Of a DNA stretch of 64,000 nt, positions 15,428 to 21,290 are shown in pieces; position 1 is the first letter of the stretch; the number at the start of each line of letters is the position of its first letter. The DNA is from a phage. The position numbers and the translations under genes are program-made. The notes beneath the pieces were generated by a model. The model saw nothing but the letters and a program-made list of their open reading frames with translations. It was not told where the DNA came from and ran no database searches. The stretch is from sequence record PZ445427.1. The stretch is one strand, 5' to 3'.

Positions 15428-16286
15428 AGATTCATAAATTAGAGAACAGCGAGCCGATTACGCTGAGTGAGTTTAGTGATTCCTACTAGGATAGCTATTC
15501 CACTGAATAGAGTCGGTGAGTTGGAGACTAGTAAGTACTCTGAGAGAGGCTACGAGCTAACGCTTATTGCTATTGATAGGGAACTGAAAATCTGCGGAAA
15601 ACTCGGGAGCTGTCCCGAAATCTCGTAAACTCTTCTCTAGTTTATGTTAGTGGGGTGTCGAACTGACTTATGTGATAACACTGCCGTCCTAGTATAAACG
15701 GTAATATCAAACCGTAACTGGTGGAAGATGCAGGTTCGAATCCTGCGGTCGGAAAGAATCAGATAACTCGGGCTTATACCGGATAAGCATTCGCTGCTGG
15801 AGTACATACTATGACGGTTCAGGAGGTACGCCACCTGATCAGTATTAGGTTAGAATCGAAACAGCTAAACCACGAGGAAACCTGACGGCCTCAACCAAAC
15901 TCGGAACTCGGGATCACTGCCTAGTGTGTGCCCCGTTTAACCTGAGACTAGGCATCCAGCTTCGCATCGAAAATCGGAGGTGCGATTCTAACAGACCGCG
16001 TGAATATGAGAGTGGGAAACGCTGACATGAGAGATGTCACTAATGGTGCCCAATAGTACAGGTAATTCGCGATAATTCCTGTTGAGCGGCAGCAGTAGGC
16101 TGGGAGTCATGACCTAAGCCTAACCGAGTTCTTCACATACGGAGAACATAACCACAAAGTCACCCTGACTTAAACTGGAAGATATTGTCTGACGGAAGGG
16201 CTGCAGAGCTTAATCTGAGGGGGCTGACCCTACCTACCGTCGGGTATCTTTAAGAGCTTTTATAAGAGTTCTTAAAAATACCTAAA

Positions 16287-16361
16287 CGGGGTGTAGTCTA
16301 AGGGATAGGCAGGAGTCTTCTAAATTCCTTTATGCAGGTTCGAATCCTGTCACCTCGGCCA
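16287..16361 (+). tRNA. tRNA-Arg(TCT)
   Basis: Acceptor cggggtg/cacctcg, anticodon loop cttctaa, T-arm gcagg-ttcgaat-cctgt, CCA encoded. Confidence 0.75.
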
Positions 16362-16387
16362 ATTTTATTAACTGCTAGGAAAATAAA

Positions 16388-16588
16388 GTGAAAACACGAT
16401 ATATAGTAAAAGTAGTAGGTGAACATTCACAAGTAAATACCACCGATGTTACAGCGCTAGCATTTGAAGTAGTCTCCGGTATAGTCATATTTCATAACGG
16501 AGATATCAAAGCTCCTGAATTTGCTGTGGATGCTAGCCTGTTTATTTCTGCAACTAAAGTAACTGTAGTAGCTAACTCTTCTAAATAA
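16388..16588 (+). CDS. hypothetical protein (66 aa, GTG start)
   Basis: AGGAAA RBS before GTG. Confidence 0.45.
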   Translation: MKTRYIVKVVGEHSQVNTTDVTALAFEVVSGIVIFHNGDIKAPEFAVDASLFISATKVTVVANSSK

Positions 16589-16599
16589 TAAGGAAATAT

Positions 16600-17544
16600 A
16601 TGTTTACTAAAAACACTAAAGAACTGACTTCCGATCAAAAAGTAATTCGTACTATTAAACGTTGGGGTGTTGGTGCTGTAGTTGGTCTTGGCGCTCTTAT
16701 TCTGGCTCTCAATTCCTACACAGTTGTTCAGGATGGTACTGTTAAGACTCAAACCTTCCTGGGTAAAGTTAGCCCGAACCCTGTACTGCCAGGCTTCCAT
16801 ATTGTTAACCCATTTGCTTCTTTTGATACTTTTAGTACGAAAGATATTTCTATGAAACTGGATAAACTTCAGGTTCCTAGCCAGGATAAGTTTAAGTCTA
16901 CTGTTGACATTACCGTTATGTTGCAGTTTGATGGTGCTAAAGCTCCTATGAACCGTGTTAACGCAGGTACTCAGGATCAGGCTCTGAACAAGTACGTTGA
17001 AGAGAAGATGCTATCTACGATTCGTGAGTTTGGTAAGTCTGTACCAAAAGCACAAGATCTGTTCGACGCTAAGATTCAGGCTCAACTGCAAACTGCTATT
17101 CAGCAAGAAGTAGAGGAGTATGCGCGTCCTTATGGTTACACCGTTAAGCAAGTATTCCTTCAGGATATTACTCTGCCACCGGTAATCATGGAACAGGTAC
17201 AGAACACCAAAGTTCGTGAAGAACAAGTTAACGCTGCAAAAGCTGAACTGGCTCGTGTTGAACAAGAAGCACAACAGAAAGTTAAGCAAGCTGAGGCAGA
17301 TCGTTCTGCTCGTGAAAACATGGCAGTAGCTAACGAACGTGACGCAGATGCTAAACTGTACGCAGCTAAGAAAGAAGCTGAAGCTAACGCCGCTCTGCAA
17401 CGTACCATTACTCCTGAAATGATTCGTTGGAAGCAGCTGGAAGTTGAAATGCTTCGTGCTGAAAAATACCAAGGTGGTGTACCGCAGACTGTTGTTGGTA
17501 CTGGCTATGATGGTCAAATGATCATGGATATGCGTAACAAGTAA
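16600..17544 (+). CDS. SPFH/band-7 (prohibitin/HflK-like) membrane protein
   Basis: N-terminal TM segment then SPFH-like core (VVQDGTVKTQTF, PGFH, DITV) and long coiled-coil tail. Confidence 0.6.
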   Translation: MFTKNTKELTSDQKVIRTIKRWGVGAVVGLGALILALNSYTVVQDGTVKTQTFLGKVSPNPVLPGFHIVNPFASFDTFSTKDISMKLDKLQVPSQDKFKSTVDITVMLQFDGAKAPMNRVNAGTQDQALNKYVEEKMLSTIREFGKSVPKAQDLFDAKIQAQLQTAIQQEVEEYARPYGYTVKQVFLQDITLPPVIMEQVQNTKVREEQVNAAKAELARVEQEAQQKVKQAEADRSARENMAVANERDADAKLYAAKKEAEANAALQRTITPEMIRWKQLEVEMLRAEKYQGGVPQTVVGTGYDGQMIMDMRNK

Positions 17545-17568
17545 TAGTTACACGTAATCTTCGAACCA

Positions 17569-17601
17569 AGCCCGCGTTTCCTCCGAGAGCGCGGGCTTTT
17601 C
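17569..17601 (+). terminator. rho-independent terminator
   Basis: agcccgcg ... cgcgggct hairpin then TTTTCT. Confidence 0.6.
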
Positions 17602-17611
17602 TGTATTTAAG

Positions 17612-17654
17612 ACAAAAGAAAAGCCCCTTACCTTTCGGCAGGGGCTTTGTTTTT
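17612..17654. terminator. bidirectional terminator between convergent transcription units
   Basis: aagcccct ... aggggctt hairpin flanked by A-run upstream and TTTGTTTTT downstream. Confidence 0.6.
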
Positions 17655-17861
17655 GGTTTAGAACCATATACTCTTGTTACAGCAACCACCCATACGGGAG
17701 ACCAATCTTGACTGAAAATCTACTCTAGGGGGCAGGATAAGAGTAGGCTTAAAGGCAAACGGATTGAACACCGGTATTTGCGTAAACATTGCTGGAGAGC
17801 AACAACGTGCTACAGGCATTGGGCAGCATGATGTAGGTTTTCTACAACACATATAAACTCC

Positions 17862-18281
17862 TTAGGATTTCTCCCCATTTTGCGCTTTTGCAACTTGACT
17901 TTGACAGAAACTATTAAACTTACCCATAAGTGAAACAAGTTGCTTCCCATCCTCTGTTTTAGCGAAGTCTTCGAAAAGGGCTAGAACAGCCTGTCCTTCC
18001 GCAGATACCTGCGGTTGTTGGGTTTGTTGAGTCATCTGCTGCTGTGGTTGCATTTGCTGAGGCATCATCTGCTGAGGCACCATTTGTTGCATTTGCATTT
18101 GCGGCTGCATTTGCATCTGGTTGATGTTTCCCTGCGGGTTTTGCAGGGAATTTTGCATTTGCTGTGCTTCTGCCAATCTCTGTTGCAACTGTTGTAAGTA
18201 GGGGTTATCCAGCCCCGGAACGGGCTGCTGGGAGCCCATACTTTGATTAAATCCGTTGTTCACAAAACCATATTTACTCAT
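17862..18281 (-). CDS. Q/M-rich low-complexity protein (139 aa)
   Basis: GGGGAGGAG RBS; central QMQMQPQMQMQQMVPQQMMPQQMQPQQQ tract. Confidence 0.6.
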   Translation of the reverse strand: MSKYGFVNNGFNQSMGSQQPVPGLDNPYLQQLQQRLAEAQQMQNSLQNPQGNINQMQMQPQMQMQQMVPQQMMPQQMQPQQQMTQQTQQPQVSAEGQAVLALFEDFAKTEDGKQLVSLMGKFNSFCQSQVAKAQNGEKS

Positions 18282-18303
18282 GATGGGCTCCTCCCCTTAA
18301 TTA

Positions 18304-19299
18304 TTAAGCCGGCAGTTTAGCCTGCAGACCAGCCAGAGTCTGAGTGATAGCACCAAGACTTACAGCGATTTGGTTGATTACCTGACCGTTAGCACCGCTA
18401 CCCTGAGCGATAGCTTCACGCAGACGGCATTCGTTCAGTTCGTCCTGAATACGCGCAGTAGTTACACCAGCGATTGCAGACTGAAGTTCACAGCAGCATT
18501 CAGCGATCTGACGTTCCAGAGCGTTCTGGTTAGCACAAGCCTGAGCAGCTACAGCAGCGAACTGGTTGTTAGTCTGGATAGACTGAGCAAACATGATCTG
18601 AGCGGTATCGAACTTGTCTTGAGCACGTGCGATCTGGTTAGCAGCGAAAGCTTGATCCATTTGACGAGAAAGATCGAACTGACCCTGAATAACATTACGA
18701 GTTTCCTGACAGATCTGGTTGGACAGGTTAGCACCAGTACCGTAGATCGTAGTCAGAAGCTGTTGAGTACTAGCAGCTTGAGCAGCTCCTACACCATTTA
18801 CTGCACTCAGAACAGCACCAGTACCCTGATTAGCTTCAGTACGAGTAGTGTTGATTGCAGCTAGAATACTTGCAGTATCCTGGTTAGAAAGGATCGCATC
18901 CACAGCAGTTCCCTCAGCGGCAACACCAGCACCGCGGCCAAAACCACCGAAACCACCGAATCCGCCTGTTAATAGAGCACCGATTAGGATAGCTCCGAAT
19001 AGACCCATACCTTCACCACCGAAAGCACCATTAGCAACTGCTGGGTAACCACCCATTAGGCCAGGGAAGCCACTAGTGAATACGTTTACTGGTTCTTGCA
19101 TTTTATGTTTTCCATGTTTATGACAATGTTCATCATCGTCATCTTCTTCATCATTTTCATCGTGTTCACGATGTTCTTTTTCGTAGGCCTTGACCTTCTC
19201 CCACTTTTTCTTGTCTGATTCTTCGTGACGACGCAGTTCTGCTGCTACGCCAGCGACCGTATCAGGACTCTTAGCTACTTCTTCTGTCATTTTTGACAC
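18304..19299 (-). CDS. membrane-anchored Gly/Ala/Gln-rich protein (331 aa)
   Basis: AGGAGGTG RBS; acidic His-rich segment, TM LFGAILIGALLTGGFGGFGGFG, A/Q-rich C-terminal half; antisense track ORFs inside are spurious. Confidence 0.6.
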   Translation of the reverse strand: MSKMTEEVAKSPDTVAGVAAELRRHEESDKKKWEKVKAYEKEHREHDENDEEDDDDEHCHKHGKHKMQEPVNVFTSGFPGLMGGYPAVANGAFGGEGMGLFGAILIGALLTGGFGGFGGFGRGAGVAAEGTAVDAILSNQDTASILAAINTTRTEANQGTGAVLSAVNGVGAAQAASTQQLLTTIYGTGANLSNQICQETRNVIQGQFDLSRQMDQAFAANQIARAQDKFDTAQIMFAQSIQTNNQFAAVAAQACANQNALERQIAECCCELQSAIAGVTTARIQDELNECRLREAIAQGSGANGQVINQIAVSLGAITQTLAGLQAKLPA

Positions 19300-19351
19300 C
19301 TCCTAGTATATAGAAAATGTGTGTCTCTTTGATCACTCATCCATATCATAT

Positions 19352-19380
19352 ACTTTACATTACCCCAGCGAAAATGTCAA
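19352..19380 (-). promoter_or_regulatory. sigma70 promoter (minus strand) TTGACA-17-TAAAGT
   Basis: plus-strand tgtcaa 19375..19380 gives minus -35; -10 TAAAGT 17 bp downstream. Confidence 0.45.
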
Positions 19381-19496
19381 GGGGTCTTTAAAAATTGCCC
19401 CCGGATTTTTAGTGGGGTAACAATTTCTGGACTTCACCACTCACCTGCTACCCTTAAGTGCCCTGCGATTTTCCACTAAAAAGTTTAAAAATTCGA

Positions 19497-19525
19497 TTGC
19501 TTGAATGCTAAATTCTCTGTATAAT
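19497..19525 (+). promoter_or_regulatory. T5-type early promoter
   Basis: ttgctt 19497..19502, 17 bp, tataat 19520..19525. Confidence 0.6.
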
Positions 19526-19555
19526 ATATTTATAAATTTGAGAGAGGAATCAAAT

Positions 19556-20611
19556 ATGATTAAGACTGGTCTAGTAATTGGTAAGTTCGCACCATTAACG
19601 CGTGGTCATATTAACCTAATAAACACAGCAGCAACTATGTGTGAACGAGTTATTGTTGTAGTTAGTCATGATAATCGTTGGCTGGATAAGCAGAACACAC
19701 GTGATCAGGAAGTATTACAGTTAAAGAATCGACTTCGTTGGTTAGAACAAACTTACGCGGATATTGAGCACATTTCGGTAGAGTACATTATTGAAGATGA
19801 TATTCCTGAATATCCGAATGGTTGGCCGGAATATGCTAGAATCCTTAATGAAAATTACGGACATTTGCCTGAGATCACCATTTTCTCTAGCGAACTAGAC
19901 TATGATGCAGAATATAAGAAATATCTGCCGAAGTTTGGTCATTATATTGTAGATTCTGATCGGACTCGTGTTCCAATCTCAGCTACAATGATTCGTAATG
20001 ATCTTATGAAGTATTGGGAGTTTCTTCCTAGCGTAGTTCGTAAAGATTACGTGCGTAAGGTTGTAATCATTGGGACTGAAAGCTCGGGAAAGACTACTTT
20101 AACAAAATACCTTGCGAAGCTATACAACACTTCGTGGGTAGAAGAATATGGCCGAACGTATTGTGAAGTTGATCTAGTTGGTAACGAAAATCTACTTACC
20201 AGTGAAGATTATAGTAAAATTGCGTTCAGACACAAAGAGCTAGAGTTTGAAGCAGAACGTACTGCAAATAAGATCATGTTTGTGGATACAAATGCTTTTA
20301 TTACTGAGTTCTACCACAGACTTTATGAACATCGTAAGAATCCTGTGGTTACAGCAATTGCAAAAGAAGAACATTACGATTTAGTAATTGTTCTAGCGCC
20401 TACTGTTAAGTGGGTAGATGATGGTTTACGTATTAACTCCGATCGTTCAATTACTTCTGAACTGTTCGAGCAGATGAAGAAAGAATTTCCAAATCAGTTC
20501 CCTGAAGGGCGTACTGTTTACATCGACTCCCCGGACTACAAAGTTCGTATGGACGAAGCAGTAAACGCAGTAGACTGGCTGATTCATCACTTTAACGTTG
20601 GAGAGTTTTAA
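19556..20611 (+). CDS. nadR: NadR-like bifunctional NMN adenylyltransferase / ribosylnicotinamide kinase
   Basis: GKFAPLTRGH nucleotidyltransferase motif and IIGTESSGKTTL P-loop; start ATG 19556 (track start 19505 lies in promoter). Confidence 0.7.
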   Translation: MIKTGLVIGKFAPLTRGHINLINTAATMCERVIVVVSHDNRWLDKQNTRDQEVLQLKNRLRWLEQTYADIEHISVEYIIEDDIPEYPNGWPEYARILNENYGHLPEITIFSSELDYDAEYKKYLPKFGHYIVDSDRTRVPISATMIRNDLMKYWEFLPSVVRKDYVRKVVIIGTESSGKTTLTKYLAKLYNTSWVEEYGRTYCEVDLVGNENLLTSEDYSKIAFRHKELEFEAERTANKIMFVDTNAFITEFYHRLYEHRKNPVVTAIAKEEHYDLVIVLAPTVKWVDDGLRINSDRSITSELFEQMKKEFPNQFPEGRTVYIDSPDYKVRMDEAVNAVDWLIHHFNVGEF

Positions 20612-20612
20612 T

Positions 20613-21290
20613 ATGACTAACTATCTTGTAAATGACTTTAAAAACTGGAAACCTTTGGAATATCTGTGGCTGTTTATAGCAGTCGCCTTTATTAGTTTAG
20701 CAAACTATAATGGTACAGCTCTAGATTGGGCTACTGCAATAACCAATGTGGTTTGTGTTATTCTGGTTGCAAAAGGACGTGTTTCCAACTATATTTGGGG
20801 CTTAGTGGGTGTTCTTACATATGGTATTACAGCTTTAAACGCAGATCTTTATGGTAACGCTGCACTAAACCTGCTATACTACGTTCCTATGCAGTTTTAT
20901 GGAATGTACTTATGGCATAAAAATAAGCCAAGTAATCTGCCAGATGTTCCAACTAAGGTTCTGACTAAAGCCCAAGCTCTGCTGACTCTAGGGATTCTAG
21001 CAGTAGCCACGTTAGGGTATGGTAGTTTCTTAGCTACTACGGCTGATCCATTCCCAATGTTGGATGCATTTACTGCGGTAGGTAGTGTGATCGCTATGTG
21101 GCTTATGGTTAAGCAGTATGCCGAGCAGTGGCTGATCTGGATTGCTATTAACATTGGTACTGTGTACATTTGGCTTGTAACTGCTCAATCTACAGGTGCA
21201 TCTTATGCAATCCTAGCAATGTGGCTAGTATTCTTAGGTAACTCTATTATGGGAGCCTATAAAGGATACTTTGTACGCGTTAACAAATAA
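20613..21290 (+). CDS. pnuC: PnuC-like nicotinamide riboside transporter
   Basis: Polytopic membrane protein immediately after nadR; start ATG 20613 after GGAGAG. Confidence 0.6.
   Translation: MTNYLVNDFKNWKPLEYLWLFIAVAFISLANYNGTALDWATAITNVVCVILVAKGRVSNYIWGLVGVLTYGITALNADLYGNAALNLLYYVPMQFYGMYLWHKNKPSNLPDVPTKVLTKAQALLTLGILAVATLGYGSFLATTADPFPMLDAFTAVGSVIAMWLMVKQYAEQWLIWIAINIGTVYIWLVTAQSTGASYAILAMWLVFLGNSIMGAYKGYFVRVNK

What the first reader, a model, noticed from the sequence alone, without database searches (positions are those of the whole stretch)
17658..19400. Minus-strand two-gene island with its own promoter: membrane Gly/Ala/Gln-rich protein plus Q/M-rich low-complexity protein
In an otherwise plus-strand early region, two genes run on the minus strand between a bidirectional terminator (17612..17654) and a TTGACA promoter (19352..19380). 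The 331-aa protein has an acidic His-rich N-terminus, a glycine-zipper-like TM segment and an A/Q-rich C-terminal half; the 139-aa protein contains a long QMQPQ-type tract. Both have strong RBS and highly-expressed codon style. The function is unknown; possibilities include a membrane-active or condensate-forming host-modulating protein.
Basis: seen in the sequence. Interest (0 to 1): 0.6.

Follow-up and report, generated by a model that had tools for sequence, protein, structure and literature searches.

The report
Mobile three-gene phage cassette, cysteine-stapled helix
The "two-gene island" is a three-gene, self-contained, dispensable early operon of T5-like phages (T5.077-T5.079) whose main product is a membrane-anchored protein with one ~28-nm helix and an invariant Cys-Cys-Cys motif; it belongs to an uncharacterised family found almost only in viruses, from phages to giant viruses.

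Summary
The window is a T5-like phage, 99% identical to Escherichia phage IrmaTschudi. Three corrections:
- There is a third gene, a 64-aa peptide with four vicinal Cys pairs (17658..17852).
- The large protein starts at ATG 19290 and is 328 aa.
- Only the large gene has highly-expressed codon usage.

The operon is orthologous to T5.077/078/079, which are annotated as hypothetical. They are "Not Fit" in a published T5 knock-down screen. Many sister phages have cleanly deleted the operon.

The same trio also sits in lambdoid contigs and in the virulent Pseudomonas phage KPP23, so it behaves as a mobile accessory cassette. AlphaFold2 with a deep alignment predicts three elements:
- an N-terminal helix;
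- a Gly-zipper hydrophobic anchor;
- one uninterrupted 186-residue helix carrying invariant C252 and CCC265-267.

Profile searches link that helix (hhalign 99.3%) to a family with no match in Pfam, NCBIfam or PADLOC (its PHROG families are all "unknown function") that is common in giant-virus MAGs and nearly absent from bacterial genomes.

The Q/M-rich tract is a variable spacer, which argues against a condensate role. My best guess, at low confidence, is a thiol-bridged, membrane-attached scaffold with an accessory competition or defence-related role. The function remains unproven.

The parts
19352..19380 (-). Sigma-70 promoter of the operon: -35 TTGACA (19380..19375), 17-nt spacer, -10 TAAAGT (19357..19352). 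Homologous to T5 early promoter P12.
   Evidence: 10/12 matches. (T5 and BF23 records annotate promoter P12 at the same place). The same TTGACA-17-TAAAGT with upstream TTTAAAGACCCC is present in the divergent T5-like contig L007.
19381..19397 (-). A/T-rich block AATTTTTAAAGACCCC just upstream of the -35 hexamer. It looks like an UP element and is conserved in L007.
   Evidence: Read from the sequence. Its function is inferred, not tested.
19299..19303 (-). Shine-Dalgarno GGAGG of the large gene. The ORF-finder's GTG 'start' (19299..19297) overlaps it.
18304..19290 (-). Gene 1: 328-aa protein, orthologue of T5.077 and member of PHROG 8119. High CAI (0.54).
   Evidence: (E 5e-196), and 80 (dN/dS 0.14-0.15).
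19156..19263 (-). Gene 1 residues 10-45: conserved charged N-terminal helix (VAAEL.RHE.SDKK...).
   Evidence: AF2 pLDDT 85-96. Conserved in A1 and recognisable in distant relatives P0157, P0164 and P0165.
19102..19155 (-). Gene 1 residues 46-63: acidic, His-rich, disordered linker (DENDEEDDDDEHCHKHGKHK). Its length varies, but the His-rich character recurs.
   Evidence: P0150, P0151 and P0153 also have His-rich N-termini; pLDDT <50.
19078..19095 (-). Gene 1 residues 66-71: EPVNVF motif, nearly invariant, immediately before the Gly-rich region.
18937..19011 (-). Gene 1 residues 94-118: Gly-zipper hydrophobic segment GMGLFGAILIGALLTGGFGGFGGFG, followed by a conserved Arg. Putative membrane anchor.
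   Evidence: invariant G94, L106, G113, G115; KD17 1.92; the same kind of segment in 73 of 134 family members. Only a weak SlyB-like glycine-zipper match (E 0.5). AF2 confidence here is low.
18319..18876 (-). Gene 1 residues 139-324: one uninterrupted alpha-helix of 186 residues (about 28 nm). A/Q/T/N-rich, with only 12% charged residues.
   Evidence: pLDDT >90 for residues 140-270 and 86-91 beyond. (composition; weak 3.6-3.7 residue periodicity).
18490..18498 (-). Gene 1 residues 265-267: invariant Cys-Cys-Cys within QIAECCCEL. Invariant C252 (18535..18537) lies 13-15 residues upstream on the same helix.
   Evidence: (CCC invariant in the giant-virus-type family too).
18307..18390 (-). Gene 1 residues 301-328: the most conserved stretch of the close family, NGQVINQIAVSLGAITQTLAGLQAKLPA. 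This is the distal tip of the long helix.
   Evidence: block of invariant columns from G302 to Q323.
18288..18296 (-). Shine-Dalgarno GGGGAGGAG of gene 2.
17862..18281 (-). Gene 2: 139-aa protein, orthologue of T5.078 and member of PHROG 7894.
- Residues 27-43 (18153..18203): conserved helix PYLQQLQQRLAEAQ.
- Residues 44-92 (18006..18152): variable Q/M/P spacer.
- Residues 93-133 (17883..18005): conserved domain EGQAVLALFE.FAKTEDGKQLVS.MGKFNSFCQS with an invariant Cys.
   Evidence: and 80 (dN/dS 0.15-0.18). No Pkinase domain, so the 'cAMP-dependent protein kinase' label in some records is a low-complexity artefact.
17858..17863 (-). Shine-Dalgarno AAGGAG of gene 3. It overlaps the TAA stop codon of gene 2, which suggests translational coupling.
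17658..17852 (-). Orthologue of T5.079.
   Evidence: pattern conserved in the lambdoid and Pseudomonas-phage versions; dN/dS 0.21-0.27; present in 220 phage records, often unannotated.
17613..17655 (.). Bidirectional intrinsic terminator that closes the operon.
   Evidence: T5 and BF23 annotations.

Best explanation
SHOWN. The locus is a self-contained three-gene early operon with its own promoter, three coupled genes and a bidirectional terminator. It is the orthologue of T5.077-T5.078-T5.079. It is dispensable and horizontally mobile: the same trio, in the same order, occurs in T5-like virulent phages, in lambdoid contigs and in the virulent Pseudomonas phage KPP23.

Gene 1 encodes an abundant-looking protein built from four elements:
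- a charged N-terminal helix;
- an acidic, His-rich linker;
- a conserved Gly-zipper hydrophobic segment;
- one continuous helix of about 186 residues (~28 nm) carrying invariant C252 and CCC265-267.

Gene 2 encodes a small protein with a conserved helix, a variable P/Q/M spacer and a conserved 40-aa domain with one invariant Cys. Gene 3 encodes a 64-aa Pro/Phe-rich peptide with conserved vicinal Cys pairs.

INFERRED.
1. The Gly-zipper anchors gene 1 protein in, or on, the cytoplasmic membrane.
2. The long, poorly charged helix cannot be stable alone. It must pair with copies of itself, or lie along a surface, to form an extended coiled-coil scaffold.
3. The conserved cysteines of all three products form the joints of the assembly, either as shared metal-thiolate sites or as disulfides. 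This would explain why the three genes always travel together.
4. The assembly most likely sits on the cytoplasmic face. The partners have no signal peptides, a conserved Arg follows the anchor, and the giant-virus relatives have no anchor.
5. It serves an accessory, competition-type role at the cell envelope (exclusion of other phages, or interplay with host defence) and has no core replication role.

Steps 3 to 5 are hypotheses.
For: Operon anatomy and orthology.

All three genes are under purifying selection.

Strict co-occurrence: 221, 221 and 220 phage records for genes 1, 2 and 3.

Mobility: the trio lies in L007 (a divergent T5-like contig), in L008/L009 (between antiterminator Q and the holin-lysozyme-Rz cassette, on the opposite strand), and in L010/KPP23 (next to terminase).

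Dispensability:
- A clean ~1.75-kb deletion in TrudiRoth and many other Epseptimaviruses leaves a remnant of the 3' end of gene 3.
- T5.077, T5.078 and T5.079 are all 'Not Fit' in CRISPRi-ART (PMC11879866 supplement).

Not a virion component: KPP23 virion mass spectrometry lists nine ORFs, none of them ORF072-074 (PMC4031330).

Structure: AF2 with 63 sequences gives helix 139-324 at pLDDT about 90-98. The helix has 12% charged residues.

Anchor: conserved hydrophobic Gly-zipper with a trailing Arg. Many distant members have it at residues 15-40 with no K/R before it.

Cysteines: invariant C252 and CCC, an invariant Cys in gene 2, and a conserved CC pattern in gene 3.

Abundance: CAI 0.54.

Neighbourhood of accessory or counter-defence genes: NadR-like NMNAT and PnuC in the window, and T5.076, annotated as anti-retron, in T5.
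Against: - No experiment or homology ties the cassette to exclusion, defence or counter-defence. PADLOC gave no hit.
- Membrane insertion is predicted only from hydropathy. AF2 confidence in the anchor is low, and the lambdoid orthologue has a weaker hydrophobic core.
- Topology is ambiguous. The 90-residue N-terminal domain is highly charged (13 K/R), which argues for N-in/C-out. The flanking-charge pattern of the family argues the opposite.
- No multimer or complex prediction could be run, so interaction among the three proteins rests on co-occurrence alone.
- Hydrophobic periodicity of the helix is only weakly significant: 27 of 500 shuffles reach the observed power.
- Giant-virus relatives have neither the anchor nor the small partners. 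The ancestral role of the CCC helix may therefore have nothing to do with membranes.
Confidence: 0.33

Rival explanations
1. Metal-handling module. The His-rich N-terminus, the CCC motif and the vicinal-Cys peptide bind soft metal ions such as Cu(I), Zn(II) or Ni(II). The cassette would sequester, buffer or deliver a metal during infection or lysogeny, as an auxiliary metabolic function comparable to the NAD-salvage genes next door.
For: - The His-rich acidic N-terminal tracts recur in close and distant relatives: HYHHHHHEHY in P0010-P0013, and HEHGDMDHAVEHKHKHKHG in P0151.
- Invariant CCC plus C252, four CC pairs in gene 3, and a Met-rich spacer in gene 2 of this phage.
- Literature precedents for CCC motifs as metal ligands, taken from titles and abstracts only: PP1 inhibitor-3 (PMC10066265) and a fungal Cu(I) metallothionein (PMC13107397).
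- Vicinal Cys pairs bind Hg or As in MerT/MerF and ArsD (my own knowledge, not tested here).
- The adjacent genes are metabolic auxiliaries, NadR-like and PnuC.
Against: - The His-rich tract is absent from several orthologues (P0020-P0027, L007).
- The Met-rich character of gene 2 is not conserved.
- Gene 3 has 12.5% Cys and 9% Phe, which is unlike metallothioneins.
- There is no similarity to any metal-transport or chaperone family in Pfam or NCBIfam.
- A 28-nm helix is unnecessary for metal buffering.
Confidence: 0.18
2. Periplasm-spanning stalk. Gene 1 protein inserts N-in/C-out, and its 28-nm helix crosses the periplasm as a disulfide-stapled coiled coil, like an i-spanin or TolA domain II. 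The conserved tip would touch the outer membrane or peptidoglycan to block incoming phage DNA or stabilise the envelope.
For: - The helix length of about 28 nm roughly matches the commonly cited width of the Gram-negative periplasm (my own knowledge).
- The N-terminal domain is long and highly charged (13 K/R, 23 D/E), so it is unlikely to be translocated.
- The C-terminal domain has six Cys in this phage.
- The most conserved segment is the distal tip.
- All known hosts of the trio are Gram-negative.
- There is an architectural echo of Rz/Rz1: a TM segment plus coiled coil with Cys, and a small Pro-rich Cys-containing partner.
Against: - Genes 2 and 3 have no signal peptide or lipobox, so they could not meet the periplasmic helix.
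- There are no K/R within 25 residues before the anchor, and a conserved Arg follows it. Many relatives have a short, uncharged N-tail, which favours C-in.
- Giant-virus homologues of the helix have no anchor or signal.
- Cys counts in orthologues are odd (7 or 9).
- The lambdoid contigs already carry their own Rz-type spanin (PF03245).
Confidence: 0.15
3. Counter-defence factor. The cassette neutralises a membrane-associated or thiol/metal-dependent host immunity system. It is kept or lost according to the defence repertoire of the local hosts.
For: - Presence/absence polymorphism among near-identical phages.
- Sharing between virulent and lambdoid (presumably temperate) phages.
- Early promoter.
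- Location in the accessory tRNA region, next to T5.076 (annotated anti-retron) in T5 and next to NAD-salvage genes here.
- No fitness effect on a laboratory K-12 host that lacks most defence systems.
Against: - The argument rests purely on neighbourhood.
- There is no similarity to any known anti-defence protein.
- The high expression level and the structural, non-enzymatic nature of the products are not typical of known inhibitors, although sponge-type inhibitors are an exception.
- It overlaps with the best explanation and cannot be separated from it computationally.
Confidence: 0.15
4. Condensate or aggregate former. The Q/M-rich protein drives phase separation to organise or sequester host factors.
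For: - 27% Gln and 9% Met in gene 2.
- A Q/N/A-rich gene 1 helix with few charges.
Against: - The Q/M tract varies from about 50 residues to almost none among orthologues and changes composition. The ordered flanks are what is conserved.
- The codon usage of gene 2 is average.
- The gene 1 C-terminal half is confidently helical and is not predicted to be disordered.
Confidence: 0.05
5. Virion or assembly component: an internal or ejection protein, or a scaffold.
For: - Giant-virus relatives occur as tandem arrays of 3-4 paralogues, as abundant structural proteins often do.
- In KPP23 the trio lies beside terminase and portal.
- A/Q-rich helices with hydrophobic Gly-rich segments resemble tape-measure or ejection proteins (my own knowledge).
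Against: - Early sigma-70 promoter in the early/tRNA region.
- Dispensable in T5 and naturally deleted.
- Not among the KPP23 virion proteins found by mass spectrometry.
- In KPP23 and the lambdoid contigs it is transcribed opposite to the structural or lysis genes.
Confidence: 0.04

Closest known systems
T5.077 / T5.078 / T5.079 of phage T5 (NC_005859), equivalent to ORF 326aa / 138aa / 64aa of BF23 (AJ604530)
   Same: - Orthologues: 92%, 83% and 94% amino-acid identity.
- Same order, and the same promoter (P12).
- The same bidirectional terminator.
- The same adjacent single-strand-nick motif and SPFH gene.
   Different: - The upstream neighbour differs: T5.076/hegA in T5, a NadR-like gene here.
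- These T5 genes are themselves uncharacterised: 'unknown function' and 'Not Fit'.
PHROG 8119 (gene 1) and PHROG 7894 (gene 2); related PHROGs 16490 and 9288
   Same: - Full-length matches, E 5e-196 and 1e-64.
- Distant relatives of gene 1 fall in PHROGs 16490 and 9288.
   Different: - All four PHROGs are 'unknown function'.
- Gene 3 has no PHROG and is listed as a singleton in the CRISPRi-ART annotation.
Giant-virus-type 'AECCCELKE' helical proteins (alignment A2; IMG/VR GVMAG loci L017-L070)
   Same: - Homologous over about 128 columns, including QFAA..QAC.N.NAL..QIAECCCEL and the following R(L/I)RD(E/A)L. hhalign gives probability 99.3%, E 4e-20.
- Also found almost only in viruses and uncharacterised.
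   Different: - No Gly-zipper anchor, no His-rich N-terminus and no small partner genes.
- They occur as tandem paralogue arrays in 200-470 kb contigs with eukaryote-type neighbours such as UCH.
Phage morons, meaning autonomous accessory transcription units such as lambda bor/lom or HK97 gp15 (my own knowledge)
   Same: - Own promoter and terminator.
- Opposite strand to the neighbouring genes.
- Presence/absence polymorphism.
- Occurrence in unrelated phage backbones.
- In the lambdoid contigs, placement in the Q-to-lysis gap.
   Different: - Here it sits in a virulent phage and is driven by an early promoter.
- Expression from a prophage is untested.
- There is no sequence relationship to any characterised moron product.
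Two-component spanins Rz/Rz1 (my own knowledge)
   Same: A bitopic protein with a long coiled coil containing Cys, plus a ~60-aa Pro-rich Cys-containing partner, both encoded by Gram-negative phages.
   Different: - Gene 3 has no lipoprotein signal or lipobox.
- The genes are not embedded in or overlapping one another.
- Early promoter, outside the lysis cassette.
- The lambdoid contigs have a separate Rz (PF03245).
- No Pfam spanin hit.
Vaccinia A27, the coiled-coil protein whose vicinal Cys71-Cys72 disulfide-link it to A26 and which is tethered to membrane via A17 (my own knowledge, an analogy only)
   Same: Adjacent cysteines inside a viral coiled coil act as the covalent joint to a partner, and the assembly is attached to a membrane.
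   Different: - No sequence similarity was tested or found.
- The poxvirus system relies on a virus-encoded cytoplasmic thiol oxidase, and no such enzyme is evident in this cassette.
Glycine-zipper membrane proteins such as SlyB
   Same: GxxxG-rich hydrophobic segment. SlyB is the top hit, though insignificant, in the PDB profile search (E 0.5).
   Different: - No lipoprotein signal.
- No significant match to any Gly-zipper Pfam family.

Membership tests
T5.077-T5.079 orthologous operon (Markadamsvirinae) | Sequence orthology of all three products | tested here: met
   Amino-acid identity to T5 is 92%, 83% and 94%. tblastn finds genes 1, 2 and 3 in 221, 221 and 220 phage records.
T5.077-T5.079 orthologous operon (Markadamsvirinae) | Conserved synteny: promoter P12, three genes, bidirectional terminator, nick motif, SPFH gene | tested here: met
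PHROG 8119 / PHROG 7894 | Full-length HMM match | tested here: met
   E 5.4e-196 over residues 4-331, and E 1.1e-64 over residues 1-138.
Virus-associated 'ECCCE helix' superfamily (defined here) | Invariant CCC within Q(L/I)AECCCE(L/I), preceded by AC.N and followed by R(L/I)(R/Q)D(E/A)L, on a long helix | tested here: met
   (112 representatives with E<=1e-3), and 93 (hhalign 99.3%).
Phage moron / autonomous accessory cassette | Own promoter and own terminator, transcribed independently of the flanking genes | tested here: met
   T5 and BF23 annotations. Actual transcription was not measured here.
Phage moron / autonomous accessory cassette | Present or absent among close relatives, and found in unrelated phage backbones | tested here: met
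   Deletion in TrudiRoth and others. Trio present in lambdoid and KPP23-type genomes.
Phage moron / autonomous accessory cassette | Dispensable for lytic growth | tested here: met
   Published CRISPRi-ART screen of T5: all three 'Not Fit'. Natural deletions.
Two-component spanin (Rz/Rz1) | Small partner is an outer-membrane lipoprotein with a signal peptide and lipobox Cys | tested here: not met
   Gene 3 starts MCCRKPTSCC, with no hydrophobic signal or lipobox.
Two-component spanin (Rz/Rz1) | Encoded in the lysis cassette and expressed late | tested here: not met
   Early-type promoter in the tRNA region. In L008/L009 it lies on the opposite strand to a complete holin-lysozyme-Rz set.
Two-component spanin (Rz/Rz1) | N-in/C-out bitopic topology of the large subunit | tested here: inconclusive
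   The charge distribution gives conflicting signals.
cAMP-dependent protein kinase catalytic subunit (label carried by gene 2 in several GenBank records) | Protein kinase catalytic domain | tested here: not met
   No Pfam family at E<=0.1 for the 139-aa protein. Only the Q-rich low-complexity tract could explain the label.
Metallothionein-like peptide (gene 3) | Very high Cys content (typically 15-30%), with few or no aromatic residues | tested here: not met
   12.5% Cys, 9.4% Phe and 14% Pro. Metal binding itself cannot be tested with these tools.
Known anti-phage defence systems (PADLOC) | HMM match to any defence-system protein | tested here: not met
   No hit at E<=1 for seven proteins from three versions of the cassette.
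Pfam Gly-zipper families / SlyB-like | Significant HMM match | tested here: not met
   None in Pfam. SlyB E 0.5 in the PDB profile search.

The most novel reading that the evidence does not exclude
The cassette is the bacterial-virus, genetically tractable representative of an ancient superfamily found almost only in viruses and shared by tailed phages and giant viruses of eukaryotes. Its members would build long, cysteine-stapled (metal- or disulfide-bridged) helical scaffolds. In phages the scaffold has acquired a membrane anchor and two dedicated Cys-bearing partner proteins, forming a previously unrecognised kind of envelope-associated accessory machine.
Probability: 0.3. Interest if true: 0.75.

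Novelty: categorically new. Interest (0 to 1): 0.52.

Why it matters
These genes have sat in the T5 reference genome for twenty years as "hypothetical". This analysis adds five points:
- The unit is a strictly co-inherited trio.
- The unit moves between unrelated phage lineages.
- It is gained and lost among near-identical phages.
- Its main protein is predicted with high confidence to be a single helix about 28 nm long with an invariant CCC motif.
- That helix is homologous to a large, unnamed family in giant viruses that is almost absent from cellular genomes.

A protein family with this distribution and no characterised member is rare. Here it comes with ideal experimental handles. T5 and the BASEL phages IrmaTschudi (cassette present) and TrudiRoth (cassette deleted) infect E. 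coli K-12. Working out the role of the cassette could reveal a new way phages modify the infected cell envelope or compete with other phages and host defences. It would also give a first functional foothold for the giant-virus relatives. If the phenotype turns out to be subtle, the practical gain is still a corrected annotation: the third gene, the start codon, and removal of the spurious "cAMP-dependent protein kinase" label.

Tried and rejected
Searches that found nothing useful:
- Pfam, NCBIfam and PADLOC scans of all three proteins and of the lambdoid and Pseudomonas versions gave nothing significant.
- A Pfam scan of 63 superfamily members gave only sub-threshold compositional hits: Apolipoprotein in 6 of 63 and Baculo_PEP_C in 3 of 63.
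- PDB sequence searches with single sequences and with profiles gave nothing: SlyB E 0.5, AbpA E 0.33.
- Foldseek against BFVD and PDB found no match. This is expected for a single long helix.
- PHROG scans of the neighbours of two distant relatives (L012, L013) were uninformative.
- The profile search with the giant-virus-type alignment and the cluster look-up returned no informative names; the sequences are metagenomic, unnamed or 'hypothetical protein'.
- Scans of one genome per bacterial species gave 0 loci for the close family and 3 loci for the wider motif, so prophage context could not be exploited.
- IMG/VR returned only T5-like isolates for the close family.
- Literature searches for the T5 locus tags, accessions, the PHROG id and the AECCCE motif found no study of these genes.

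Structure prediction:
- The first AF2 run, with 16 close homologues, was low-confidence (pLDDT 49) and was not used.

Readings considered and rejected:
- Kinase: no catalytic domain.
- Spanin: no lipobox, wrong regulatory context.
- Metallothionein: wrong composition.
- Microcin or bacteriocin precursor: no leader and no modification or export genes.
- Virion protein: early promoter, dispensable, absent from the KPP23 virion mass spectrometry.
- The terminator-like hairpin inside gene 2 (18128..18150, plus strand): the region's count of terminator-like hits matches chance (3 found, 2.2 expected from shuffles), and this one lies inside a coding region on the antisense strand.
- The 39-aa ORF annotated in IrmaTschudi (bas28_0086): it lies across the two terminators and is probably spurious.

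Full report
IDENTITY OF THE WINDOW AND CHECK OF THE OBSERVATION

The 2-kb region is 99% identical to Escherichia phage IrmaTschudi (Bas28, Epseptimavirus, Demerecviridae). It matches about 400 T5-like records.

The ORF list confirms minus-strand ORFs at 18304..19299 (331 aa from GTG) and 17862..18281 (139 aa). The consensus scan finds TTGACA-17-TAAAGT at 19380..19352 on the minus strand. The hairpin at about 17613..17655 folds at -22.2 kcal/mol (z -4.4) on the minus strand and -20.8 kcal/mol (z -3.1) on the plus strand, each followed by a U-run. The T5 and BF23 GenBank records annotate the homologous sites as 'promoter P12' and 'efficient bidirectional rho-independent terminator'.

Three corrections are needed.

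1. There is a third gene. A 64-aa ORF at 17658..17852 has an AAGGAG Shine-Dalgarno that overlaps the stop codon of the 139-aa gene. T5 annotates it as T5.079 and BF23 as 'ORF 64aa'.
2. The GTG at 19299 is part of the Shine-Dalgarno GGAGGTG. The start is ATG 19290, giving 328 aa, and all homologues begin at MTEEV.
3. Only the large gene has codon usage typical of highly expressed E. coli genes: Sharp-Li CAI 0.54, sixth of 138 ORFs in the window. The 139-aa and 64-aa genes score 0.26 and 0.21, at the window median of 0.27.

THE UNIT IS A CO-INHERITED TRIO UNDER SELECTION

Against T5 and Seabear, dN/dS is 0.14-0.15 for gene 1, 0.15-0.18 for gene 2 and 0.21-0.27 for gene 3. tblastn finds the three products in 221, 221 and 220 phage records respectively. 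Gene 3 is often left unannotated in those records.

THE UNIT IS DISPENSABLE

Many Epseptimaviruses have the SPFH gene and the NadR-like gene directly adjacent. These include TrudiRoth, SuperGirl, S113 and SH9, whose flanks are 96-98% identical to this window.

Aligning TrudiRoth shows that it lacks about 17687..19442. It retains a decayed copy of the 3' end of gene 3 and of the terminator, so this is a deletion of an ancestral cassette.

In the published dCas13d knock-down screen of T5, T5.077, T5.078 and T5.079 are all 'Not Fit' and annotated 'unknown function' (PMC11879866, supplementary files 8 and 16).

THE UNIT IS MOBILE

Divergent homologues of gene 1 (37-55% identity) were traced to their contigs. 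In every case the gene is followed by two others:
- a 107-143-aa protein with the conserved C-terminal motif F.EFA.TEDGKQLVS..GKFN.FCQSK;
- a 60-64-aa peptide that starts MCC or MCGCC and carries CC pairs.

The contexts differ widely:
- another T5-like genome (L007), with the same promoter sequence;
- lambdoid contigs (L008/L009), where the trio sits between antiterminator Q and the holin-lysozyme-Rz cassette on the opposite strand, with its own terminator;
- the virulent Pseudomonas siphovirus KPP23/RSP (L010, L090), beside terminase.

In KPP23 the virion mass spectrometry lists nine ORFs, none of them ORF072-074 (PMC4031330). This is the behaviour of a moron-like accessory cassette.

WHAT THE PROTEINS LOOK LIKE

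No Pfam, NCBIfam, PADLOC or PDB-sequence match is significant for any of the three proteins. PHROGs 8119 and 7894 are 'unknown function'. The 'cAMP-dependent protein kinase catalytic subunit' label on gene 2 in several records is a low-complexity artefact, because there is no kinase domain.

The alignment of the close family of gene 1 shows these features:
- a conserved charged N-terminal helix;
- a variable acidic, His-rich linker;
- a nearly invariant EPVNVF motif;
- a conserved Gly-zipper hydrophobic segment followed by Arg;
- a long A/Q/T/N-rich region with invariant C252 and C265-C266-C267;
- a very conserved C-terminal tip.

AlphaFold2 with 16 close sequences was unreliable (pLDDT 49). 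With a 63-sequence superfamily alignment it reached a mean pLDDT of 78.6. That model has helix 10-45 (pLDDT 85-96), a low-confidence hydrophobic helix 96-108, and one uninterrupted helix 139-324 (pLDDT >90 for 140-270 and 86-91 beyond). At 1.5 A per residue this helix is about 28 nm long.

The helix has only 12% charged residues and a weak 3.6-3.7-residue hydrophobic periodicity, which 27 of 500 shuffles reach. It must therefore be buried, either against copies of itself, against partners or against a surface. Foldseek finds nothing, as expected for a single helix.

It ranges from about 50 residues to almost none and changes composition. The helix PYLQQLQQRL.EAQ and the 40-aa C-terminal domain, which has an invariant Cys, stay conserved.

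Gene 3 is Pro/Phe-rich, with a conserved CC...CC...CC pattern.

A WIDER SUPERFAMILY FOUND ALMOST ONLY IN VIRUSES

An exhaustive HMM search of 1.84 billion representatives found only five clusters of the close family at E<1e-30, but 112 proteins at E<=1e-3. These share the stretch ..AC.N...L..Q(L/I)AECCCE(L/I)K....R(L/I)RD(E/A)L. Many also share the VNVF plus Gly-zipper module and a His-rich N-terminus. They fall in PHROGs 8119, 16490 and 9288, all of unknown function.

A subfamily without the anchor (alignment A2) is homologous to the T5-like family by profile-profile comparison: probability 99.3%, E 4e-20 over 128 columns.

Scanning one genome for each of 185,579 bacterial and archaeal species gave 0 loci for the close family and only 3 for the wider motif. 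IMG/VR gave 54 loci. Many are giant-virus MAGs or contigs of 200-470 kb. Their neighbours include a ubiquitin C-terminal hydrolase, an RNR small subunit, a GH18 glycoside hydrolase and DNA polymerase B. The gene often occurs there in tandem arrays of three or four paralogues, without any small Cys-rich partner. None of these proteins carries an informative name in any source.

MECHANISM: WHAT IS SHOWN AND WHAT IS INFERRED

Shown:
- an autonomous, early-type, dispensable, mobile three-gene unit;
- an abundant-looking main product with a conserved hydrophobic Gly-zipper and a very long helix;
- conserved cysteines in all three products.

Inferred: the Gly-zipper attaches the protein to the cytoplasmic membrane, the helix oligomerises into an extended scaffold, and the cysteines form its joints with the two partners through shared metal-thiolate sites or disulfides. 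This would explain the strict co-inheritance.

Topology cannot be settled. The 90-residue N-terminal domain has 13 K/R and 23 D/E, which argues against its translocation. On the other hand:
- there are no K/R within 25 residues before the anchor;
- a conserved Arg follows the anchor;
- many relatives have a short uncharged N-tail;
- the partners lack signal peptides;
- the giant-virus homologues have no anchor at all.

I therefore favour a cytoplasmic-face scaffold over a periplasm-spanning stalk, at roughly 55:30.

The biological role is the weakest step. The cassette's behaviour, its early promoter and its neighbourhood point to a competition or defence-related accessory function. The neighbourhood consists of NAD-salvage genes here and the anti-retron-annotated T5.076 in T5. 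Nothing computational discriminates exclusion, counter-defence or metal handling. The recurring His-rich tracts, and literature precedents for CCC motifs as metal ligands, keep the metal hypothesis alive.

COMPARISON WITH KNOWN SYSTEMS, AND VERDICT

The locus is a member of the T5.077-079 orthologous group and of PHROGs 8119 and 7894. It also meets the operational definition of a moron-like cassette.

It fails the tests for spanins (no lipobox, wrong context), kinases, metallothioneins, known defence systems and Pfam Gly-zipper families.

Architecturally it recalls Rz/Rz1 and the vaccinia A27-A26 vicinal-Cys coiled coil. These are analogies from my own knowledge, not relationships tested here.

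The genes themselves are catalogued, but no member of the family has a known function. The family lies outside every characterised kind that I could test.

I rate interest at about 0.5. The object is real and unusual, it is experimentally tractable, and its evolutionary reach is unexpected. Its function remains conjecture.

Noticed in passing
window 17568..17598 (+), nick motif at 17588|17589: The terminator hairpin of the SPFH gene contains AGA|GCGC. This is the same sequence and position that the T5 record marks as a major single-strand interruption (consensus Pu|GCGC; the 32.6% nick). This phage probably carries the same site-specific nick right beside the cassette.
   Followed up: partly
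window 16600..17544 (+): The SPFH/Band-7 membrane protein (T5.080 orthologue; PF01145 E 3e-19, PHROG 200) has a CAI (0.55) as high as gene 1. It is retained when the cassette is deleted, so it is not part of the unit, but it is another abundant membrane protein of unknown role.
   Followed up: partly
window 19505..21290 (+): A NadR-like bifunctional NMN adenylyltransferase / ribosylnicotinamide kinase (PF13521 plus PF01467; PHROG 3462) is followed by a PnuC-type transporter, annotated as such in IrmaTschudi. This NAD-salvage pair lies immediately upstream of, and divergent from, the cassette. In T5 that position is occupied by T5.076, which the CRISPRi-ART authors annotate as subverting retron defence.
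   Followed up: partly
window 17658..17852 (-): Gene 3 has an unusually low synonymous divergence: dS 0.08-0.16, against 0.33-0.94 for genes 1 and 2 in the same phage pairs. The cause could be an extra nucleotide-level constraint, recent recombination, or small-sample noise (64 codons).
   Followed up: no
window 17862..18281 (-); GenBank records of T5 (kapc), Seabear, STWB21, ESCO30/40, HMD-7: Gene 2 is widely mis-annotated as 'cAMP-dependent protein kinase catalytic subunit'. It has no kinase domain, and the label evidently comes from a Q-rich low-complexity match.
   Followed up: yes
L017-L022 (IMG/VR giant-virus contigs), e.g. L019 3014..6539: Giant-virus relatives of the CCC helix occur as tandem arrays of three or four paralogues of 246-288 aa. 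L019 also encodes DNA polymerase B, and L023 encodes a ubiquitin C-terminal hydrolase.
   Followed up: partly
window 15650..16400 (+): A GC-rich stretch (about 0.49, against about 0.38 around it) contains a tRNA at 16287..16358 and a borderline tRNA-like hit at 15683..15754 (29.3 bits, gathering score 29). In T5 the equivalent place next to tRNA-Arg is annotated as 'RNAX, stable RNA with unknown functions'.
   Followed up: no
window 17548..17667 (-), equivalent to bas28_0086 in IrmaTschudi: A 39-aa 'hypothetical protein' annotated in the IrmaTschudi record lies across the two terminator hairpins between the SPFH gene and gene 3. It is probably not a gene.
   Followed up: no
L008 5417..5611; L010 5419..5601: The gene 3 homologue was not called by the gene finders on the lambdoid and KPP23-like metagenomic contigs. 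It is also unannotated in many GenBank T5-like records. The KPP23 record does annotate it, as ORF072.
   Followed up: yes
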